A stretch of DNA of 64,000 nt, from assembly GCA_050010635.1 (NCBI GenBank), contig JBEKKR010000008.1, positions 56,378-120,377 of the forward strand, written 5' to 3'. This stretch comes from Candidatus Limnocylindrales bacterium. GTDB taxonomy: Bacteria > Chloroflexota > Limnocylindria > Limnocylindrales > CSP1-4. Positions 1-64,000 of this stretch are shown one piece after another. Under the pieces are notes generated by a model. That model did no database searches. It worked only from the letters and a program-made list of their open reading frames with translations, and was not told where the DNA came from. The stretch's first letter is position 1. Every line of letters starts with the position of its first letter. A program made the translations under genes and the position numbers.

Positions 1-225
1 TCGGTATGGACGTGGAACCAGTTCGTGCTCGCCCTGGTCCTCGTGGAGGACCCGAACCAGCGGACGGCGGCCGGCGCCCTGGGAGCTTTCCAGGGCCACT
101 ACGCCACCGACATCCCCTTGCTGTGCGCGGGCTCGCTGGAAATCCTCCTGCCCACCCTTATCGTCTTCATCCTTTTCCAGCGCCAGGTCATCGCCGCGCT
201 TCTACAGGGTTCGGTCAAGGGCTAG
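1..225 (+). CDS. Carbohydrate ABC transporter permease, C-terminal fragment (gene starts upstream of window)
   Basis: Tail ...DPNQRTAAGALGAFQGHYATDIPLLCAGSLEILLPTLIVFILFQRQVIAALLQGSVKG is typical of MalG/UgpE-type permease C-termini; stop at 223-225. Confidence 0.55.
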   Translation, partial: SVWTWNQFVLALVLVEDPNQRTAAGALGAFQGHYATDIPLLCAGSLEILLPTLIVFILFQRQVIAALLQGSVKG

Positions 226-251
226 CTGGGCCCAGACCCACCGAGGAAACC

Positions 252-1424
252 ATGCCACTTGCGATACATGCTGAGGCTGAGCCCGGCTACGGGGGCGTCG
301 TCGACGTCTTCGAGGCCAACTTCCGCGAGCGGGGGGACGTGGGCGCCGCCTGCGCCATTTACGTGGATGGCCGAAAGGTCGTTGACGTCTGGGGCGGGAT
401 AGCCGACAAGCGTTCTGCCCGACCGTGGGCCGAAGACACGGCCGCGGTGATCTTCTCCTGCAGTAAAGGCATTCTGGCTATCTGTGCATATGCGCTCGTC
501 CAGGACGGCCGTCTGGATCTCGAGGCACCCGTATCACGCTACTGGCCCGAGTTCGCGCAACACGGCAAGGAGGCGATTACCGTGCGCTGGCTGCTCAGCC
601 ACCGTGCCGGGCTGCCGGTGCTCGATCGGGATCTGACGCGCCCCGAGGTCCTTGCCTGGGAGCCGGTGATACGGGCAATCGAGGCCCAGTCTCCACTCTG
701 GGCTCCGGGTACGGCCCACTCATACCACGCCATGACCTACGGTTGGCTCGTCGGCGAGGTCATCCGCCGCATCACCGGCAGCCTGCCAGGCGTGTTCTTT
801 CGCGAGACCCTCGGGGATCCTCTGGGGTTGCACACCTGGATTGGCTTGCCTGCTTCCGCCCGCGCGTCGGTGGCCTGGATGGAGCCGCCCCTTCCTGATG
901 AGGACACTCCGACCGTCCGAGCCATTGTGCAACACCTCGCCGAGCCGGTGGCGTTGCGCAATCTCGACATGGGCGGGGCCTTCGGGTTCCCGCTTGAAGC
1001 CGGCATCGTGGCGTTCAACGACCCGGAGATACAGGCGGCAGAGGTTCCAGCTGCCAACGGCATCAGCACCGCGCGTTCGCTCGCCCGCCTCTACGCCGGC
1101 TGCGTATCAGAGATAGACGGCCCGAGGATCCTCTCCCGCTCGTCGATCGACGATGCCATCAGAGTGCTATCGTCCGGCCGGCAACTGTTTGGGCCGCCCG
1201 ACTCCGGTCAACGTTGGGGCACCGGATTCATGCTCGACTCTCCTCCAGCGCGCCCTCTAGTTGGAACTCGCAGCTTTGGGCACGATGGAGCCGGTGGTCA
1301 GCTTGGGTTTGCCGACGACGAGTTCGGCGTCGGCTTTGCCTACCTCAGCAATCAGATGGGTGGCCTCGTCGATGCCCGCGCGACTCAACTGACGGCTGCC
1401 GTCAAAGGTTGCCTCATCGGCTAG
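252..1424 (+). CDS. Serine hydrolase, beta-lactamase/esterase (class C-like) family
   Basis: ATG at 252 directly after the permease stop; S-x-x-K motif FSCSKG; overall beta-lactamase/EstB-like sequence. Confidence 0.8.
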   Translation: MPLAIHAEAEPGYGGVVDVFEANFRERGDVGAACAIYVDGRKVVDVWGGIADKRSARPWAEDTAAVIFSCSKGILAICAYALVQDGRLDLEAPVSRYWPEFAQHGKEAITVRWLLSHRAGLPVLDRDLTRPEVLAWEPVIRAIEAQSPLWAPGTAHSYHAMTYGWLVGEVIRRITGSLPGVFFRETLGDPLGLHTWIGLPASARASVAWMEPPLPDEDTPTVRAIVQHLAEPVALRNLDMGGAFGFPLEAGIVAFNDPEIQAAEVPAANGISTARSLARLYAGCVSEIDGPRILSRSSIDDAIRVLSSGRQLFGPPDSGQRWGTGFMLDSPPARPLVGTRSFGHDGAGGQLGFADDEFGVGFAYLSNQMGGLVDARATQLTAAVKGCLIG

Positions 1425-1502
1425 AAGTGACCGGAACAGTCACGACGATCGTGCGCAGATCCGCTCGGCGGACGTCGTGGCAGAACGGAAAGACAGAGCG
1501 GG

Positions 1503-2180
1503 ATGTCGAGGTCTTGGAGGAGCTTTGTGAAGGGCGACGTGATCGTCGTTGACAATAGCCACCGCCGGGTTGCGGCGACGATCGCGACGGCGATTCGACC
1601 GCTCCTCACCGCGAAACCGGGCCGGTTCCTCGTCACGGTCGCCGGCGAGTCCGGTTCAGGCAAGTCGGAAACTGCAGCGGCTCTTGCGGAGCAGCTGCTG
1701 GATGCGGGGATCCACTCCGCGATCCTCGGCCAGGACGACTACTTCGGGCTGCCGCCAAAGACAAACGACGCTCGGCGCCGTCAGGACCCTGATTGGCTCG
1801 GTCCTCACGTGGAGGTGCGCCTCGATCTGCTCCAGGCCAACGTGGACTCGGCTCTCGCGGGCGAGGCCTCAATTGAAAAGCCCATGGTCGACTACGCTGC
1901 CAATTCGCTTTCGACCGAAACCCTCAGCCTGGCCGGCGTGAAGGTCGTAATCGTCGAGGGAACCTACGTATCACTACTTAGGCACGTTGACGTGAGGATC
2001 TTCATCGCCCGAACCCGCCTTGAGACCCTGGAGCACCGGATGAGGAGGAATAGGGGCAACGAAGTGCGCGACCCCTTCATCGAGGGGATCCTCAGCGTTG
2101 AGCACAAGATCATCGCCGGCCATCGACATCTCGCTGATTTCGTCGTGACGAGCGACTACGACGTCGTCCAGGCAGACTGA
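1503..2180 (+). CDS. P-loop kinase of the uridine kinase/phosphoribulokinase family
   Basis: Walker A VTVAGESGSGKSE; length and downstream motifs resemble uridine kinase-like NTP-binding proteins. Confidence 0.55.
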   Translation: MSRSWRSFVKGDVIVVDNSHRRVAATIATAIRPLLTAKPGRFLVTVAGESGSGKSETAAALAEQLLDAGIHSAILGQDDYFGLPPKTNDARRRQDPDWLGPHVEVRLDLLQANVDSALAGEASIEKPMVDYAANSLSTETLSLAGVKVVIVEGTYVSLLRHVDVRIFIARTRLETLEHRMRRNRGNEVRDPFIEGILSVEHKIIAGHRHLADFVVTSDYDVVQAD

Positions 2181-2192
2181 GCCGCGAGCGCG

Positions 2193-3662
2193 ATGACAGT
2201 CAAGAACAAGGTCCAGCTGATCACCTACCCTGATTCACTCGGAGGCTCGCTGAAGGGCCTCGATGAGGCTCTGTCGCGCTTCTTTCCGGCTCTGTTCCAG
2301 GGCGGGATCCACATCCTGCCGCCGTTTCCGTCGTCGGGCGACCGAGGCTTTGCTCCGTTGACCTACCTGGAGATCGATCCGGCCTTCGGTACTTGGGATG
2401 ACATTCGACGGCTGGGCGAGCGATACGACATCTTGCTGGACCTCATGGTCAACCACATCTCCAGCAAGTCGCCATTCTTCGTCGACTTCCTGACGAACGG
2501 GCGCGCGTCGGAGTGGGCTGACCTCTTCATCACGCTTGACAAGTACTGGCCGGGCGGCCAACCGGCTCAACAGGACGTCGACAGGATGTTCCTGCGCAGA
2601 CAGCGGCCGTACTCCACGTTCAAGGTGGGTGCCGCCGGGATCGACGAGAAGATCTGGACGACCTTCGGCAAGACGGACCCATCTGAGCAGATCGATCTGG
2701 ATTGGAAGTCGCCCTTGTTCAAGGGCCTGGTTGCCGCCTTCATTGACAACTTCTCGCGTCAGGGCGTGAAGATCGTCAGGCTCGACGCTGTCGGATACCT
2801 GATCAAGAAACTTGGGACAAGCTGTTTCTTCGTCGAGCCCGAGATCTACGAATTCATGGACTGGATCAGCGCGATGGCCTCCACGAAGGGCATCACGCTC
2901 TTGCCGGAGGTTCATGCGCAGCCGGCAATCCAGAGTCGCCTCTCGCAGCATGGCTACTGGACCTACGACTTCATCCTGCCGTACACGATCCTCGAAGCGC
3001 TGATCATTCGGTCTCCGATACGTCTCCGGCCGTACCTGCTGTCGAGATCCGCCAAGCAGTTCACGATGCTCGACTGCCATGACGGAGTCCCGGTGAAGCC
3101 CGACATGGATGGGCTGTACGCGCCCGAGGACGTTCGTTGCCTGGTCCAGACATGCCTGGATCGCGGCGCGAACCTTAGCCTGGTTGTGTCACCCGAACAT
3201 CAGGACCCGGATGGCTTCGATGTCCACCAGATCAGAGGTACCTACTACTCACTGTTGGGTTGCGACGACGACGCCTACATCGCCGCCCGCGCCATTCAGT
3301 TCTTCGTGCCGGGCGTACCACAGGTCTACTACGTCGGTCTCCTTGCCGGACAGAACGACGTAGAGGCCGTCGCCCGCAGCGGCGAAGGCCGAGAGATCAA
3401 TCGGCACAACTACGGCGCTGACGAGATCGAGGCAGCAGTCAGAACGGATGTCGTACGGCGTCTCGACTGGCTCATCCGCCTTCGAAACCAGCATCCGGCG
3501 TTTGACGGGGAATTCCGAGTACTCGATTCCGACGCCGGCAGGCTGCGTCTCGCCTGGTCGAAGGATGGCGATAGCTGCGCTCTGGACGTCGATTTCGTCT
3601 CAATGAGCTCCAGCGTCGAGTCCATGGACGCGCTGGGGCACGTGCAGCGTGTCAGTCTCTAG
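2193..3662 (+). CDS. GH13 sucrose phosphorylase-family glycoside phosphorylase (possibly glucosylglycerate phosphorylase)
   Basis: 489 aa; N-terminus LITYPDSLGGSLKGL...ILPPFPSSGDRGFAP...LDLMVNHIS matches sucrose phosphorylase (GH13_18). Confidence 0.75.
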   Translation: MTVKNKVQLITYPDSLGGSLKGLDEALSRFFPALFQGGIHILPPFPSSGDRGFAPLTYLEIDPAFGTWDDIRRLGERYDILLDLMVNHISSKSPFFVDFLTNGRASEWADLFITLDKYWPGGQPAQQDVDRMFLRRQRPYSTFKVGAAGIDEKIWTTFGKTDPSEQIDLDWKSPLFKGLVAAFIDNFSRQGVKIVRLDAVGYLIKKLGTSCFFVEPEIYEFMDWISAMASTKGITLLPEVHAQPAIQSRLSQHGYWTYDFILPYTILEALIIRSPIRLRPYLLSRSAKQFTMLDCHDGVPVKPDMDGLYAPEDVRCLVQTCLDRGANLSLVVSPEHQDPDGFDVHQIRGTYYSLLGCDDDAYIAARAIQFFVPGVPQVYYVGLLAGQNDVEAVARSGEGREINRHNYGADEIEAAVRTDVVRRLDWLIRLRNQHPAFDGEFRVLDSDAGRLRLAWSKDGDSCALDVDFVSMSSSVESMDALGHVQRVSL

Positions 3663-60340: not shown

Positions 60341-61309
60341 CTAGTCGTCGCCGGCTTCGTCGAGGCGGAGCCGCGTCCACGAGGCGCCGATCAGCAGCAC
60401 CTGGAACGCGAGATGCAGCCAGGCCAGCGCCGCGAAGACGGCCGCGACGCCGCCGAAGACGGAAAGCGCGCCGGTCAGGATCGGCGCGATATAGACGAGC
60501 AGTTCAGTGAGGCCGGTCAGCGCGAGCCCCGCCACCAGGGTCGGCAGCCACAGGACCTGGAGCGGCACCGTTGTGTTTGGAACCACGCGGTACACGATGC
60601 CCACGGCGACGATCACCAGGAAGGCGGTCAGCAACGGGAAGGCGACATCCGCCAGGATCGCGGCCGCGGCCCCGATGGAGCTGCCCTCGAGGCGGCTCGT
60701 CACCGTGGCCTTGATCGCCGAAAGACCGATCCCGGACAGCAGCCCGCCGACCAGCAGAAAGACCGAAACGAAGCCGCGCAGGATGCGGTCGAAGGGCCCG
60801 CGCGCCGGCCTACGCGCGAAGACCCGGGCGATCGCAGCGTCCAGGGCCCCGTAGAAGTGGCTCGTGCCCCAGGCCAGGCCCGCCAGACCGATGATCGAAA
60901 ATGCCCCTCCGTGCGACGCCACGTTCCTCAGTCCGTCCCGCGCCACAGGCGCCAGCGCCGCGAGCTGGCCCGTGAGGAAGCCGACGAGCTCCTCGCGGCC
61001 GACCTCGTCCGGGACCAGGTAGCCCAACAGGCCGACGGCGAAGAGCAGCCCGGTCAGGCCGGCAAAGAGCGCGCTGTACGCCAGGCCCTCGGCCAGGAGA
61101 CTCCCGCCCGCTCTGTTGTAGATGTCGAGGATCGAACTCAGCCGGCGGACGGCCGGCAGCTGGCCGATCCGGTCGACGAGCCTGCCGATCGGGGCGAAAC
61201 GAGCGCCGGGCTCAGCCTTGTCGGCGGTGCCGGCGGCCAGGTCCGGCCGGGCAGCCGGGCGCTCATTTCGATCGGATGCAGTCGCGAGTTGCTCCGGTGG
61301 TTCGACCAT
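60341..61309 (-). CDS. YihY/BrkB-family membrane protein (second copy in window)
   Basis: Six TM; same family signature as 55521-56474. Confidence 0.8.
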   Translation of the reverse strand: MVEPPEQLATASDRNERPAARPDLAAGTADKAEPGARFAPIGRLVDRIGQLPAVRRLSSILDIYNRAGGSLLAEGLAYSALFAGLTGLLFAVGLLGYLVPDEVGREELVGFLTGQLAALAPVARDGLRNVASHGGAFSIIGLAGLAWGTSHFYGALDAAIARVFARRPARGPFDRILRGFVSVFLLVGGLLSGIGLSAIKATVTSRLEGSSIGAAAAILADVAFPLLTAFLVIVAVGIVYRVVPNTTVPLQVLWLPTLVAGLALTGLTELLVYIAPILTGALSVFGGVAAVFAALAWLHLAFQVLLIGASWTRLRLDEAGDD

Positions 61310-61395: not shown

Positions 61396-61842
61396 CTAGA
61401 CGGCCTGCACCCAACGAGTGAACTCTCGCTCCGTCCGTGGGCCAACAGGGGCGGCTACCCCTCGCTTGAAGTGAGTGCCGCCGAAGATGTGGACGTACCC
61501 GCCGAAATCCGAGGGCAGGTAGAAGTCGCCGTACTTCAGCATGGCAACTCGCGCCCTGCCAAAGCGTCCGCAGAAGTACCCGAACTCGAAAAGGACGTTC
61601 AGGTTCGGCACCTGGACTTCCTTCCCTCTGACGGTCGAATCGGATTCCGGCGTGAAGATCATCAGGACGGCATCGACCTTGTCGCCGATCGCATCGAGGT
61701 CCTCGAGCAGTGTGCGCCCGGGATCGAAGGCGTCCCACCAGGGCAGGAATCTGAGGGTGGGCCCCGAGAACTTCTGGATCACCGCGCGGGCCTGCGATTT
61801 GGCCGCCGAAGAGGACCCGATGAACACCGTCGTTTGAGGCAC
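61396..61842 (-). CDS. Stand-alone TIR-like nucleotide-binding protein (COG4271/PF10137-type)
   Basis: VFIGSS N-terminal strand, central LMIFTPESDS, and PNLNVLFEFGYFCGRFGRARVAMLKYGDFYLPSDFGGYVHIF matching the TIR_like signature (RxNVxfElGyfxGxlGrxrv...LPSDlxGv); about 60% GC against about 70% background. Confidence 0.6.
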   Translation of the reverse strand: MPQTTVFIGSSSAAKSQARAVIQKFSGPTLRFLPWWDAFDPGRTLLEDLDAIGDKVDAVLMIFTPESDSTVRGKEVQVPNLNVLFEFGYFCGRFGRARVAMLKYGDFYLPSDFGGYVHIFGGTHFKRGVAAPVGPRTEREFTRWVQAV

Positions 61843-62171
61843 GAACCCGCCCTCCTTGTGTGCACTCGAGCAACCGGCTCCATGTTAGTTCTTGCCGGAG
61901 CGGCGGATGCCCATTGCCGGGCGGCGGACATTCGTACTCGATCTGATGTGTGTCTTGCGAGAGTAGATTGAGCCGGCGTGTTGGGGGGCCAACGTGGAAT
62001 TGATGCCGGTTAGGCGCTGGGGTTGGACCTAGACTCGCTTGCACTTTGCGAGCGCCGGTGGGGCGGGCAAGTGATGTATCGCGCCGCCGAGCTGCGATTC
62101 GTCGAGGGCTGGCGCCTTCACCCGGGGTCACTCGCACGGAACCCGAATGGGATGGATACTTCTTGAGATAG

Positions 62172-63098
62172 CTACGCAGGGGTCTGCGTAAGGGGAACCT
62201 CGTCGGCCGGACCAGTCCAGTCGTTCAGGTAGACATGTCTCAGGTGTCGGACTGGGATTGGAGGCATGACCTCGCTCGTCAACAGACCGTAGACGAGAGA
62301 CTCGGCCGGCCATCGCATCCCAGTCTGGTCGAAGCCGCCGAACGTTACCAATAGGGCGTCATTCCCCTCTCTGTCCTTATCCGCAATGGCGGATGTCAGA
62401 TGACGATACGCCTGCGGCCAGGTTGTCAGCGTTGTGTGGGCTAGCCCGAGGTCGAAGCCGTGGCGACTCGCAAACCGGGTTGTCATCGGGAATCCGCCTG
62501 GTGGGCCGGCCAAGAGCCTCATCCCACTCGGCGTAACAACCTCCGGAAGCCTTGGGAGCGGATTGGGCAATGGATCTCCTGGCTGGAGTTCGATCAGGTG
62601 TTCCAATGGACGCAATGCGCCAAGGGCTTCCACAATCTCGTCGGCTCCGCTCCTCAGGAAGTCGGGCGTGGATAGGTCTTCTGTCCAAATGAAGACTCGC
62701 CAGCCCGCCAGATCGGGGCGGTTGGCCAAAGACGCATCGAGCTTCCTTTTCACCAAAGCGAGTCGCGTCGCTGCCTCCCGGCGCTCCGGATCGGCGAACT
62801 GGGTCAGTTCGAGTCCGAGGCGTCCCTCTGAGCAAGTAACTTGAAGATCCGGAGGATCAGCGCCAGCGACAGCACCTGTGAATTCAGGCTGGCCGCGAGA
62901 CCTCTCGATGTGCTCTGCGAATCGGGCGAAGACGGTCAGGTCGATCGCGCTCCGGGGAAGGGCGCTGATCCCCCAGTCTTCTATCTCGGCCTCGTAGGCG
63001 ATGAGTAGCGCTGAAGCATCCGCCGTCCGACCCCGGAGCCCAAATGACGAAACCGCCCCGCTCTGCTCGCACGTGAATGTCAATGTGGTCACCGTCAT
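62172..63098 (-). CDS. Hypothetical protein (308 aa) in the lower-GC islet
   Basis: Continuous ORF at about 55-60% GC; start MTVTTLTFTCEQSG; no recognisable domain. Confidence 0.45.
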   Translation of the reverse strand: MTVTTLTFTCEQSGAVSSFGLRGRTADASALLIAYEAEIEDWGISALPRSAIDLTVFARFAEHIERSRGQPEFTGAVAGADPPDLQVTCSEGRLGLELTQFADPERREAATRLALVKRKLDASLANRPDLAGWRVFIWTEDLSTPDFLRSGADEIVEALGALRPLEHLIELQPGDPLPNPLPRLPEVVTPSGMRLLAGPPGGFPMTTRFASRHGFDLGLAHTTLTTWPQAYRHLTSAIADKDREGNDALLVTFGGFDQTGMRWPAESLVYGLLTSEVMPPIPVRHLRHVYLNDWTGPADEVPLTQTPA

Positions 63099-63318
63099 CT
63101 CACGGGCAATAGCAGGCAGAAGGAACAAGGGAACGGGCAGAGCCGGAAGTGGCGCACGGGGCCCAGCGGACGCTGCGGCCCCCTTTGTTAGCGCTTCGGT
63201 GGGCAGGCGACTGCGAGATCTCTCGTCTACCGTCCCCGCGGAGCCCTTGTAGGCTTGGTTTCTCTGTTTCCCTGAACGGCGATGCCTGCTATTCGGCACA
63301 ATTCGGCATCCTCACCTA

Positions 63319-64000
63319 CTAGGAACACCCGCTCGTGGAGCCGCAGTTCAGGCACTTGTAACAGGACCCGTTGCGGACCATGATCGAGCCGCATTCGGCG
63401 CAGCTGGGGGCGTCGGCCTGGGAGGTGAACGTCACCTGGGCCTTGCCGATGCCGAGGTTGCCCAACGTGACGCGGGCGGCGGAGCCGTTGCCGTTGCCGC
63501 CAGCGCGAGCTGGCGCGTTGCCGTTGCTGCTTATGGGAGTGGTCTCGGAGCGGGGAGCGGCGTCTTGCCCCTCTCTGGCGGGCGGCGGGGTAGCCGCCTG
63601 AGCCTCTGGAGCTGCAACCGCCGTAGGCGTGCCGGCTCCGCCGGCCTCGCCACTCAACGGTGAAGCCGGCCCCGCGGCGGGCAACGTGCCACTCCCTGAA
63701 TTCCCGGCGATTCCAGCCACGTTGGCTCCACCGAGGCCGAGGGTGAGCGGCTGGACCGAGGATTCAGCGGCAGCCGACCGGTCGACCAGACCGAGCGTGG
63801 CGCGGTCTTCCGGCGGGAGGAAGCGGGATCCCAGCCAGCGGAAGATGTAGTCCACGATCGACTTGGCGATCGGGATCTCCGGGTTGGTGGTGAAGCCCGA
63901 CGGCTCGAAGCGGACGTGGGCGAACTTGTGGACCAGGTCGTGGAGCGGCACGCCGTACTGGAGCGCGACGCTCACGGTGGTCGCGAAGGTGTCCATCAGG
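63319..64000 (-). CDS. nrdJ: Class II (B12-dependent) ribonucleotide reductase, C-terminal part (gene continues beyond window)
   Basis: C-terminus ...PSCAECGSIMVRNGSCYKCLNCGSTSGCS (Zn-ribbon typical of NrdJ) preceded by an Ala/Pro/Gly-rich linker and a conserved region. Confidence 0.7.
   Translation of the reverse strand, partial: LMDTFATTVSVALQYGVPLHDLVHKFAHVRFEPSGFTTNPEIPIAKSIVDYIFRWLGSRFLPPEDRATLGLVDRSAAAESSVQPLTLGLGGANVAGIAGNSGSGTLPAAGPASPLSGEAGGAGTPTAVAAPEAQAATPPPAREGQDAAPRSETTPISSNGNAPARAGGNGNGSAARVTLGNLGIGKAQVTFTSQADAPSCAECGSIMVRNGSCYKCLNCGSTSGCS

What the first reader, a model, noticed from the sequence alone, without database searches (positions are those of the whole stretch)
61396..63300. 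Lower-GC islet with a stand-alone TIR-like protein and an unknown 308-aa partner (candidate defence module)
GC drops from about 70% to about 55-60% across 61.4-63.3 kb. The islet holds a 148-aa protein matching the TIR-like nucleotide-binding family used as NAD-degrading or signalling effectors in CBASS/Pycsar/Thoeris-type systems (signature NVLFEFGYFCGRFGRARV...LPSDFGGYV), a 330-nt promoter-containing intergenic region, and a co-oriented 308-aa protein with no recognisable domain. The islet is inserted between housekeeping genes (YihY, NrdJ). Composition shift plus a defence-type domain plus an unknown neighbour is the usual footprint of a horizontally acquired defence module; the partner could be the sensor or trigger.
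Basis: partly seen in the sequence, partly recalled or inferred. Interest (0 to 1): 0.65.

Follow-up and report, generated by a model that had tools for sequence, protein, structure and literature searches.

The report
Two unrelated accessory genes, not a module
The low-GC islet is real, but it holds two independent single genes: a highly conserved sensor-less TIR enzyme long resident in this lineage, and a recently inserted member of an unannotated, probably nuclease-like family. They are not a sensor-effector defence pair.

Summary
The 148-aa protein is a genuine Cap12/PycTIR-type TIR domain (PF10137, E 1.4e-21) with its catalytic Glu intact. The 308-aa neighbour matches no Pfam, NCBIfam or PADLOC model. 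GC does fall, but to 61-65%, not 55-60%.

The interpretation as a co-acquired two-gene defence module is not supported.
- The TIR gene belongs to a very conserved family of about 148 aa (434+ clusters, 45-90% identity across many phyla). It has no conserved neighbour in 58 species.
- In three related Chloroflexota genomes the TIR gene lies in the same region, with divergence like core genes and dN/dS of 0.16-0.26. Homology stops about 55 nt upstream and 4 nt downstream of the gene.
- The 308-aa gene has the lowest GC3 of the 64 window genes (0.66). It is absent from those relatives, which carry other cargo after nrdJ, for example an Mrr-nSTAND3 protein.
- Its family (about 380 representative proteins) never lies next to this TIR elsewhere. 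Members occur beside an MmeI-type RM enzyme, a Qat-like cluster and helicases, but also beside metabolic genes.
- A confident AlphaFold model (pLDDT 94.7) has a PD-(D/E)xK-like core, but no significant structural match was found.

Best reading: two independent single-gene accessory or defence candidates in a variable hotspot.

The parts
63319..63996 (-). 3' end of the upstream housekeeping gene (class II ribonucleotide reductase-like; TSCPD domain plus a C-terminal CxxC...CxxC). Conserved DNA ends exactly at its stop codon.
   Evidence: PF12637 TSCPD, E 1.3e-5. The region is 79-80% identical in DNA to L006 and L007 down to window 63320-63323, and homology then stops.
62172..63098 (-). 308-aa protein of an unannotated family, a strain-specific insertion. 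The predicted two-lobed alpha/beta fold has a PD-(D/E)xK-like N-terminal core. Motifs are G-A-D-P-P-D84, E97-L-T-Q and R106-R107. The ORF stays open upstream to a GTG at 63299 (375 aa as called by JGI).
   Evidence: No Pfam, NCBIfam or PADLOC hit. It has 3 close homologues and 380 distant representatives. AF2 pLDDT is 94.7 and pTM 0.91. GC3 is 0.66, the lowest in the window. It is absent from L005-L007.
61898..62171 (-). Distal part of the 329-nt spacer, with no detectable feature.
   Evidence: No Rfam hit. Fold z-score is -0.37. No promoter or terminator consensus on this strand. Not homologous to relatives.
61843..61897 (-). Conserved 5' region of the TIR gene. It contains GAAC-TAACAT (the -10-like hexamer at 61887-61882), GTTGC, and the ribosome-binding site AAGGAGG (61857-61851).
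   Evidence: The upstream sequences of the window, L005, L006 and L007 were printed side by side. DNA homology with relatives starts at window 61891, 61876 and 61856.
61396..61842 (-). 148-aa stand-alone Cap12/PycTIR-type TIR protein ('TIR148'), with a GTG start. The TIR domain covers residues 6-119 and the catalytic-motif Glu86 sits in NVLFEFG. A conserved 30-aa C-terminal tail follows.
   Evidence: PF10137, E 1.4e-21. Aligns to the solved Cap12 TIR 7un8, E 2.6e-13, with the FEFG motif matched. 434+ homologue clusters. 43 invariant columns. dN/dS is 0.16-0.26.
60341..61309 (-). YihY/BrkB-family membrane protein, the downstream housekeeping flank.
   Evidence: PF03631, E 1.4e-26. In L007 the homologue (67% aa) lies 4.3 kb further from the TIR gene.

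Best explanation
The islet is a small variable hotspot between nrdJ and yihY. It holds two functionally independent single-gene units of different age.

(1) TIR148.
- It is a sensor-less, single-domain TIR enzyme of the Cap12/PycTIR clade.
- It has been resident in this Chloroflexota lineage since before the split from three sampled relatives.
- It is transcribed from its own short conserved 5' region.
- It most likely acts alone as an NAD+ glycohydrolase, through its conserved Glu86 (inferred).
- Activity is presumably switched by oligomerisation or a trigger protein rather than by a nucleotide second messenger, because it has no ligand-binding domain (inferred).

(2) The 308-aa gene.
- It is a recent, compositionally foreign insertion directly after nrdJ.
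- It belongs to an unannotated family that lies beside defence genes in 4-5 of about 12 contexts seen.
- Its confident predicted structure has an alpha-beta-beta-beta-alpha-beta core carrying a PD...E-x-T motif, followed by an Arg pair on the next helix.
- It is therefore most likely a Mg-dependent PD-(D/E)xK-type nuclease working on its own (inferred).

Shown: domain identity, gene distributions, composition, synteny and selection. Inferred: the enzymatic activities, any anti-phage role, and the independence of action.
For: TIR identity:
- PF10137 E 1.4e-21 and PADLOC TIR effector models.
- The profile aligns to the solved Cap12 TIR 7un8/9lmq and to PycTIR 8jsj. NV[VL]FEFG is matched and E86 is invariant in the family.

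TIR148 behaves as a single-gene unit:
- All 434+ relatives are about 148 aa.
- In 58 species no neighbour family occurs in more than 14 loci. Those that recur are lineage synteny.

TIR148 is resident in the lineage:
- L005, L006 and L007 carry it at 82-89% aa identity, with nrdJ 5-6 kb upstream or the glyoxalase and yihY downstream.
- TIR DNA identity is 82-89%, against 79-80% for nrdJ and 74% for yihY.
- dN/dS is 0.16-0.26.
- GC3 of 0.81 is within the host range.
- About 55 nt upstream are conserved, and homology ends 4 nt after the stop.

The partner is a separate, recent insertion:
- GC3 of 0.66 is 3.4 sd below the window median.
- It is absent from the relatives, which carry other low-GC3 cargo after nrdJ. 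This includes Mrr_cat-nSTAND3 (PDC-S73).
- Its homologue at 61% identity (L003) and the one at 44% (L001/L002, 9 nt after an MmeI-type RM gene) have no TIR gene.
- HMM searches find no TIR148 in any partner-family locus, and no partner near any other TIR148.

Partner fold:
- AF2 pLDDT 94.7 with helix 49-68, strands 73-78, 85-89 and 92-100, helix 104-123, and strand 134-138.
- D84 and R106 are at least 90% conserved, and position 97 is E or D.
- Weak Foldseek hits recur to Hjc, PD(D/E)XK, VRR-NUC and restriction endonucleases.
- The N-domain profile's best plausible PDB hit is Pa4535/1y0k, aligned at the PPD motif (E 1.2). That is a PD-ExX-K variant whose Lys has moved to the second helix (PMC3424549).

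Defence-type neighbours of family members:
- MmeI RM.
- A KAP NTPase-QatB-TatD cluster, Trypco1-S8 peptidase and NERD.
- A DEAD/ResIII helicase.
- Mrr_cat.

Precedent: single-protein TIR-only systems have been shown to protect E. coli (PMC11350192).
Against: - No activity was measured.
- TIR148 often sits among ordinary metabolic or transport genes. These include a nucleoside symporter, CrcB, an F420-type oxidoreductase and Pirin. Only about 10% of its immediate neighbours hit PADLOC models.
- It is syntenic across 10-14 Steroidobacteraceae-type species. Its cross-phylum conservation is unusually high for a defence gene. A non-immune role is therefore possible.
- The nuclease assignment for the 308-aa protein has no statistically significant support. 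Foldseek E values are all 0.13 or higher. hhalign against two Mrr_cat proteins gave nothing. The canonical Lys position holds Thr.
- About half of the partner-family contexts show no defence gene.
- The two genes are co-oriented and adjacent, so read-through co-transcription cannot be excluded.
Confidence: 0.6

Rival explanations
1. The two genes form a genuine two-gene defence system. The 308-aa protein would sense infection and activate the TIR NADase, or would respond to a TIR-made signal in a Thoeris-like way.
For: The genes are adjacent, co-oriented and only 329 nt apart in a low-GC islet. TIR148 lacks a sensor of its own. Thoeris-type systems pair a TIR with very diverse effectors (bioRxiv 10.64898/2025.12.03.692087). 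One partner-family member is fused to NUDIX, a domain that acts on ADP-ribose-type nucleotides.
Against: The pairing occurs only in this genome and its identical contig L004. It is absent from 58 TIR148 loci and about 12 partner-family contexts. The genes differ sharply in GC3 (0.81 against 0.66). TIR148 predates the insertion in this lineage. TIR148 has its own conserved 5' region. The partner has no SLOG, Macro, SIR2, STING or SAVED-like match.
Confidence: 0.1
2. TIR148 is not an immune gene. It would be a conserved NAD+- or nucleoside-processing enzyme with a physiological or stress role, and the islet's only foreign element is the 308-aa gene.
For: Identity is 45-90% across Chloroflexota, Pseudomonadota, Acidobacteriota, Planctomycetota, Verrucomicrobiota and Poribacteria, with 43 invariant columns. 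dN/dS is 0.16-0.26. Synteny with metabolic genes is stable across 10-14 species. In several species the gene starts 5 nt after crcB or lies divergent from a nucleoside:H+ symporter. It is absent from 72,556 plasmids as a full-length family and from 50,697 phages.
Against: All characterised members of PF10137 are immune effectors (Cap12, PycTIR). In many lineages the gene's GC is 5-18 points below its flanks, and its nearest relatives cross phyla, which indicates repeated horizontal transfer. Some neighbours are type I and type IV restriction, PARIS-like AriAB and PDC-M05A. In this lineage it sits in a region of rapid gene turnover.
Confidence: 0.25
3. The 308-aa ORF is not a nuclease. It could be a scaffold, a sensor or an enzyme of another class whose PD...E motif is coincidental, or part of a mobile element.
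For: No significant match to any solved or viral predicted structure. No PDB sequence-profile hit below E 0.9 for either half. Thr occupies the canonical Lys position. The C-terminal lobe carries the strongest motifs (GFELGLAYT, HDKPGVDxLLITVGGPD), which are not nuclease signatures.
Against: The secondary-structure order and the placement of D84 and E97 fit the restriction-endonuclease core. Weak hits are enriched for Hjc, PD(D/E)XK and VRR-NUC. No transposase, integrase or repeats flank it. It is absent from viral contigs.
Confidence: 0.35

Closest known systems
Cap12 (TIR-STING / TIR-SAVED) CBASS effectors and PycTIR Pycsar effectors (Pfam PF10137)
   Same: They share the TIR subfamily: PF10137 at 77 bits, and 7un8 at E 2.6e-13 over residues 3-116. 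The NV[VL]FEFG catalytic-Glu motif and the N-terminal FIGSS motif are the same.
   Different: TIR148 has no STING, SAVED or cNMP-binding sensor domain, only a 30-aa tail. There is no CD-NTase or PycC cyclase nearby. NCBIfam Cap12 equivalogs score 50 and 37 bits against a cutoff of 450. TIR148 is always a stand-alone gene.
Single-protein TIR-only anti-phage systems of E. coli (PMC11350192) and PADLOC candidate PDC-S35
   Same: These are single-gene units whose only recognisable domain is a TIR. PDC-S35 models match residues 40-119 (E 1.2e-13).
   Different: PDC-S35 proteins are 231-278 aa with the TIR at the C-terminus. TIR148 is 148 aa, far more conserved, and often lies in non-defence neighbourhoods. 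No protection assay exists for it.
Thoeris ThsB
   Same: Both are small TIR proteins that can act without a fused sensor.
   Different: ThsB belongs to other TIR Pfams (PF08937, PF13676). It is defined by an adjacent ThsA-type effector, which is absent here.
PD-(D/E)xK phosphodiesterases, especially the diverged DUF1780/Pa4535 type (pdb 1y0k; motif PD-ExX-K)
   Same: The 308-aa model has the alpha-beta-beta-beta-alpha-beta core. PPD lies before strand 2, an acidic residue lies in strand 3, no Lys occupies the canonical site, and basic residues (R106, R107) sit on the following helix.
   Different: Similarity is not significant (E 1.2; Foldseek E 0.13 or higher). The protein has an extra N-terminal beta-sheet and a roughly 120-aa C-terminal lobe with its own strongly conserved motifs. 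DUF1780 is restricted to Pseudomonadales (PMC3424549).

Membership tests
PF10137 CAP12/PycTIR TIR domain | Score above the Pfam gathering threshold over most of the model | tested here: met
   77.1 bits against a cutoff of 24.7. Residues 6-119 match model positions 2-115 of 119.
PF10137 CAP12/PycTIR TIR domain | Catalytic glutamate in the NVxFExG motif | tested here: met
   E86 is invariant in 18 diverse family members. It aligns to the FEFG Glu of Cap12 7un8/9lmq and PycTIR 8jsj. That this Glu is catalytic rests on established knowledge of TIR NADases.
CBASS (Cap12 effector) | Adjacent CD-NTase cyclase gene | tested here: not met
   The neighbours are the 308-aa unknown and YihY. The PADLOC scan of 61 other window proteins lists only generic helicase, HTH and cold-shock-type hits.
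CBASS (Cap12 effector) | Effector carries a cyclic-oligonucleotide sensor domain (STING or SAVED) | tested here: not met
   The protein is 148 aa, with only 29 residues after the TIR domain. NCBIfam Cap12 equivalogs score 50.2 and 36.6 bits against a cutoff of 450.
Pycsar (PycTIR) | Adjacent PycC cyclase and an N-terminal sensor region on the effector | tested here: not met
   The PycTIR model matches only its TIR part, positions 152-256 of 288. No cyclase lies nearby.
Thoeris | TIR gene (ThsB) in an operon with a conserved effector (ThsA-type: SIR2-SLOG, TM-Macro and others) | tested here: not met
   The partner has no such domain. The pairing is not conserved in any other locus.
Single-gene TIR defence | The TIR-only protein by itself confers phage resistance, dependent on the catalytic Glu | not testable with these tools
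   This needs cloning and phage challenge. Context evidence is mixed: about 10% of immediate neighbours are PADLOC hits.
PD-(D/E)xK nuclease superfamily (308-aa protein) | Core alpha-beta-beta-beta-alpha-beta fold | tested here: met
   AF2 model with pLDDT 94.7: H49-68, E73-78, E85-89, E92-100, H104-123, E134-138. This is a prediction, not a solved structure.
PD-(D/E)xK nuclease superfamily (308-aa protein) | Signature residues D ... (D/E)-x-K | tested here: inconclusive
   D84 is at least 90% conserved and position 97 is E or D. The K position holds T99. R106 (at least 90% conserved) on the next helix could substitute, as the migrated Lys does in Pa4535.
PD-(D/E)xK nuclease superfamily (308-aa protein) | Significant sequence-profile or structural match to a known member | tested here: not met

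The most novel reading that the evidence does not exclude
The 308-aa protein founds an undescribed, structurally distinctive enzyme family.
- It has about 380 representative proteins (one per 50%-identity cluster).
- It is absent from Pfam, NCBIfam and PADLOC.
- It has no PDB or viral structure match.
- It may act as a stand-alone defence nuclease with a non-canonical PD-ExT...RR active site.

Beside it, TIR148 may be a minimal, sensor-less TIR enzyme. Its extreme conservation and partly housekeeping-like genomics would point to a role or activation mechanism different from all characterised bacterial TIR effectors.
Probability: 0.3. Interest if true: 0.55.

Novelty: new member of a known kind. 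Interest (0 to 1): 0.35.

Why it matters
The result corrects a tempting guilt-by-adjacency call. The two genes differ in age, in composition and in where else they occur, so the pair should not be entered in catalogues as a new TIR system.

Two leads remain.
- Stand-alone TIRs were deliberately excluded from the latest systematic TIR survey. TIR148 is therefore an untested but very widespread and unusually conserved minimal TIR. How an NADase with no sensor is kept off is an open question.
- The 308-aa family is a confident-fold, unannotated family. It recurs next to RM, Qat-like and helicase genes, so it is a reasonable candidate for a new single-gene defence or nuclease family.

Tried and rejected
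- Word-indexed homologue searches for the partner, with a single sequence and with a 3-sequence profile, found only 3 clusters. The exhaustive HMM search was needed to reveal the family.
- The first AF2 run used a 3-sequence alignment and was useless, with pLDDT 50.
- Foldseek against PDB and BFVD gave nothing significant.
- hhalign of the family profile against two Mrr_cat proteins gave nothing.
- PDB profile searches with the whole protein and with each half gave nothing below E 0.9, apart from a spurious DARPin hit.
The viral scan found no relatives.
- A degenerate DNA pattern for GFELGLAYT recovered 12 metagenome loci that encode family members.
- Direct and inverted repeats around the insertion were searched for att-like scars. 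Only short, chance-level matches appeared.
- Rfam and RNA folding of the spacer found nothing.
- A fluoride riboswitch was sought upstream of the crcB-TIR148 pairs and none was found.
- TIR148 was searched on plasmids and phages. Only distant PycTIR-type domains (37% identity or less) appeared on plasmids, and nothing in phages.
- The ECF-type promoter idea for GAAC...GTT upstream of the TIR gene was rejected, because the 13-nt spacing is too short.
Full report
**What is in the sequence.**
- On the minus strand, a ribonucleotide-reductase-like gene ends at 63319.
- An ORF follows at 62172-63098 (308 aa from the ATG). The frame stays open to a GTG at 63299.
- A 329-nt spacer comes next.
- A 148-aa ORF occupies 61396-61842 (GTG start).
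- After 86 nt, a YihY/BrkB gene follows.
- GC in 300-nt windows falls from 0.67-0.76 to 0.607-0.65 between about 61.3 and 63.4 kb. The dip is real but shallower than the 55-60% reported.

**The 148-aa protein (TIR148).**
- It matches Pfam PF10137, the CAP12/Pycsar TIR domain, over residues 6-119 (E 1.4e-21).
- It matches the TIR portion of PADLOC CBASS effector, PycTIR and PDC-S35 models.
- It matches NCBIfam Cap12 equivalogs only far below their cutoffs: 50 bits against 450.
- A family profile aligns to the solved Cap12 TIR (7un8, E 2.6e-13; 9lmq) and to PycTIR (8jsj). The NV[VL]FEFG motif is superposed.
- The Glu of that motif, E86, is invariant among diverse relatives.
- Residues 120-148 are a short conserved tail, not a ligand-binding domain.

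**The TIR148 family.**
- The word-indexed search returned 434 clusters at E of 1e-3 or better.
- Almost all of the 120 listed are 143-163 aa (one is 182 aa).
- They are 62-99% identical to the query.
- A scan of one genome per species found 58 loci in Chloroflexota, Gamma- and Betaproteobacteria, Acidobacteriota, Planctomycetota, Verrucomicrobiota, Poribacteria, Lentisphaerota and Actinomycetota.
- I clustered all ORFs within 5 kb of the gene. No neighbour family occurs in more than 14 of 60 loci.
- The recurrent families are lineage synteny in Steroidobacteraceae-type genomes: an amidohydrolase, an F420-type oxidoreductase, a methyltransferase, CrcB, GFA and EamA.
- Immediate neighbours are mostly ordinary genes: nucleoside:H+ symporter in 7, CrcB in 6, F420 oxidoreductase in 4, Pirin in 3.
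- Roughly a tenth of neighbours hit PADLOC models, including type I and type IV restriction, AriAB, methyltransferases and PDC-M05A.
- In many loci the gene's GC is well below that of its flanks, and nearest relatives cross phyla. Horizontal transfer has therefore occurred. In other lineages the gene is compositionally ameliorated and syntenic.
- No full-length relative is on any of 72,556 plasmids or 50,697 phage records.

**The local history.**
- The three closest genomes are L005, L006 and L007, from Chloroflexota/Limnocylindrales-type MAGs. Their TIR genes are 82-89% identical in protein to the window's.
- L006 and L007 have nrdJ 5-6 kb upstream of the TIR gene.
- L007 has yihY and the glyoxalase-like gene downstream, 4.3 kb further away than in the window.
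- L005 keeps only the glyoxalase linkage.
- DNA homology to the window covers three stretches. The first is nrdJ up to its stop. The second is the TIR gene, from 14-49 nt upstream to 2-11 nt past its stop. The third is yihY and the glyoxalase gene. It covers nothing in between.
- TIR DNA identity (82-89%) is comparable to nrdJ (79-80%) and yihY (74%).
- dN/dS for the TIR gene is 0.16-0.26.
- The conserved upstream stretch carries GAAC-TAACAT, GTTGC and AAGGAGG. This fits an autonomous transcription unit, although the sigma-70 consensus scan reports no promoter.
- The space after nrdJ holds different, low-GC3 cargo in each genome:
  - The window has the 308-aa gene (GC3 0.66).
  - L006 has unknown 165-aa and 430-aa proteins (GC3 0.73 and 0.66).
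  - L007 has a 766-aa Mrr_cat + nSTAND3 protein (PDC-S73, GC3 0.67). A K+ channel-SHOCT gene, an HTH protein and a PDC-M05A nucleotidyltransferase follow it.
- Among the 64 predicted genes of the window, the 308-aa gene has the lowest GC3 (median 0.853, sd 0.056). The TIR gene, at 0.81, is within the normal range.
- The TIR gene is therefore an old resident, and the 308-aa gene is a recent, separate arrival.

**The 308-aa protein.**
- It has no Pfam, NCBIfam or PADLOC match.
- The word-indexed search found only an identical copy (L004, the same arrangement), a 61% relative and a 44% relative.
- The 61% relative (L003) has an Rv1289-family gene downstream, not a TIR.
- The 44% relative (L001/L002) starts 9 nt after an MmeI-type IIL restriction-modification gene and precedes dnaE.
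- An exhaustive profile search found 380 representatives at E of 1e-3 or better, 190 of them at 1e-10 or better.
- None of 139 members matches a Pfam domain in the homologous region. Thirteen carry a SEC-C motif, one an N-terminal NUDIX domain and one an HTH_17.
- With the 139-sequence alignment, AlphaFold2 gives pLDDT 94.7 and pTM 0.91.
- After an N-terminal three-stranded sheet, the order is helix 49-68, strands 73-78, 85-89 and 92-100, helix 104-123, and strand 134-138. This is the restriction-endonuclease core order.
- Family motifs sit where the active site would be. G-x-D-P-P-D84-F precedes the second core strand. h-G-h-[ED]97-[CL]-T-Q lies in the third. R106-R107 open the next helix.
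- The canonical Lys position holds Thr.
- Foldseek finds nothing significant in PDB or BFVD. The weak hits are enriched for Hjc resolvases, PD(D/E)XK, VRR-NUC and restriction endonucleases.
- The N-domain profile's only plausible PDB hit is Pa4535 (1y0k), aligned at the RF...PPD segment with E 1.2.
- Steczkiewicz et al. describe 1y0k as a highly diverged PD-(D/E)XK protein whose Lys has migrated to the second core helix (PMC3424549). That is the same variation inferred here.
- This is suggestive, not proof. I put the nuclease reading at about 0.55-0.65.
- The C-terminal lobe (GFELGLAYT; HDKPGVDxLLITVGGPD) has no match at all.

**Contexts of the 308-aa family.** About twelve distinct contexts were examined. 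Defence-type neighbours appear in four or five of them:
- an MmeI RM gene;
- a KAP-NTPase/QatB/TatD cluster, together with Trypco1-S8 peptidase, a transposase and NERD (L091);
- a 1028-aa DEAD/ResIII helicase, followed by an overlapping unknown gene (L066);
- an Mrr_cat protein 3.5 kb away (L081);
- the present TIR gene.

The rest lie among metabolic or unknown genes. Members usually have lower GC3 than their neighbours. No member is in viral contigs. HMM searches found no TIR148 in any of these loci and no family member near any other TIR148.

**Conclusion.**
- The interpretation as a two-gene, co-acquired sensor-effector module does not hold.
- The best-supported picture is a variable hotspot downstream of nrdJ with two independent single-gene units.
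- One is a resident sensor-less Cap12-clade TIR enzyme. It is probably an NAD+ glycohydrolase acting alone. Single-protein TIR systems are known to protect E. coli (PMC11350192). Stand-alone TIRs were excluded from the latest systematic survey.
- The other is a recently inserted member of an unannotated, probably PD-(D/E)xK-like family. It lies beside defence genes in 4-5 of about 12 contexts.
- A non-immune role for TIR148 remains a serious rival. The reasons are its housekeeping-like synteny and its strong conservation.

Noticed in passing
window 1-3662: Three genes at the start of the window (3-1424, 1503-2180, 2193-3662) also have low GC (0.60-0.65) and lowered GC3 (0.69-0.79) relative to the window median of 0.85. 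This may be a second foreign segment.
   Followed up: no
L022, L027, L030, L035, L039, L040, L062 (just upstream of the TIR gene): In several Steroidobacteraceae-type species the TIR148 start codon lies about 5 nt after the stop of a CrcB fluoride-channel gene on the same strand, which suggests co-transcription. No fluoride riboswitch was detected in these loci.
   Followed up: partly
L011, L014, L017, L020, L026, L031, L051: In seven gammaproteobacterial species TIR148 is divergent from a nucleoside:H+ symporter. Five of them (L011, L014, L020, L026, L051) share an upstream AAAACTAGCAGAAAATG element. This is probably lineage synteny, but it is a possible hint at nucleoside metabolism.
   Followed up: partly
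window 61882-61888; also L005, L006, L036, L052 upstream of TIR148: A CTAACAT (-10-like) heptamer recurs 20-50 nt upstream of TIR148 in distantly related hosts, as if the gene travels with its own promoter element.
   Followed up: partly
L007 2675-7841: A relative carries, between nrdJ and the TIR gene, an Mrr_cat + nSTAND3 NTPase (PDC-S73), a K+ channel with SHOCT, an Xre-type HTH and a PDC-M05A nucleotidyltransferase. L006 shares the channel. The window has lost or never had these genes.
   Followed up: yes
L091 1962-10797: A distant member of the 308-aa family (P0139) sits between a QatABCD-like cluster (KAP NTPase, QatB, unknown, TatD) and a Trypco1 + S8 peptidase pair. A transposase and a NERD protein lie nearby.
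   Followed up: partly
P0175 and 13 of 139 members of alignment A4: The 308-aa family shows domain fusions. One member has an N-terminal NUDIX hydrolase. Thirteen members have a SEC-C zinc motif, seen at the C-terminus in the sequences inspected. The weak PADLOC E1-E2/E2/PDC-S12 hits are probably due to SEC-C.
   Followed up: partly
window 63099-63299: JGI gene calling gives the 308-aa gene a 375-aa product starting at the GTG at 63299, 20 nt after the nrdJ stop. The extra 67 residues are low-complexity and are not aligned by the close homologues, so the ATG at 63098 is the more likely start.
   Followed up: partly
L066 98-5276: A family member is flanked by a 1028-aa DEAD/ResIII helicase upstream and by an unknown 285-aa gene that overlaps its stop by 4 nt. 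This is a possible three-gene operon.
   Followed up: no
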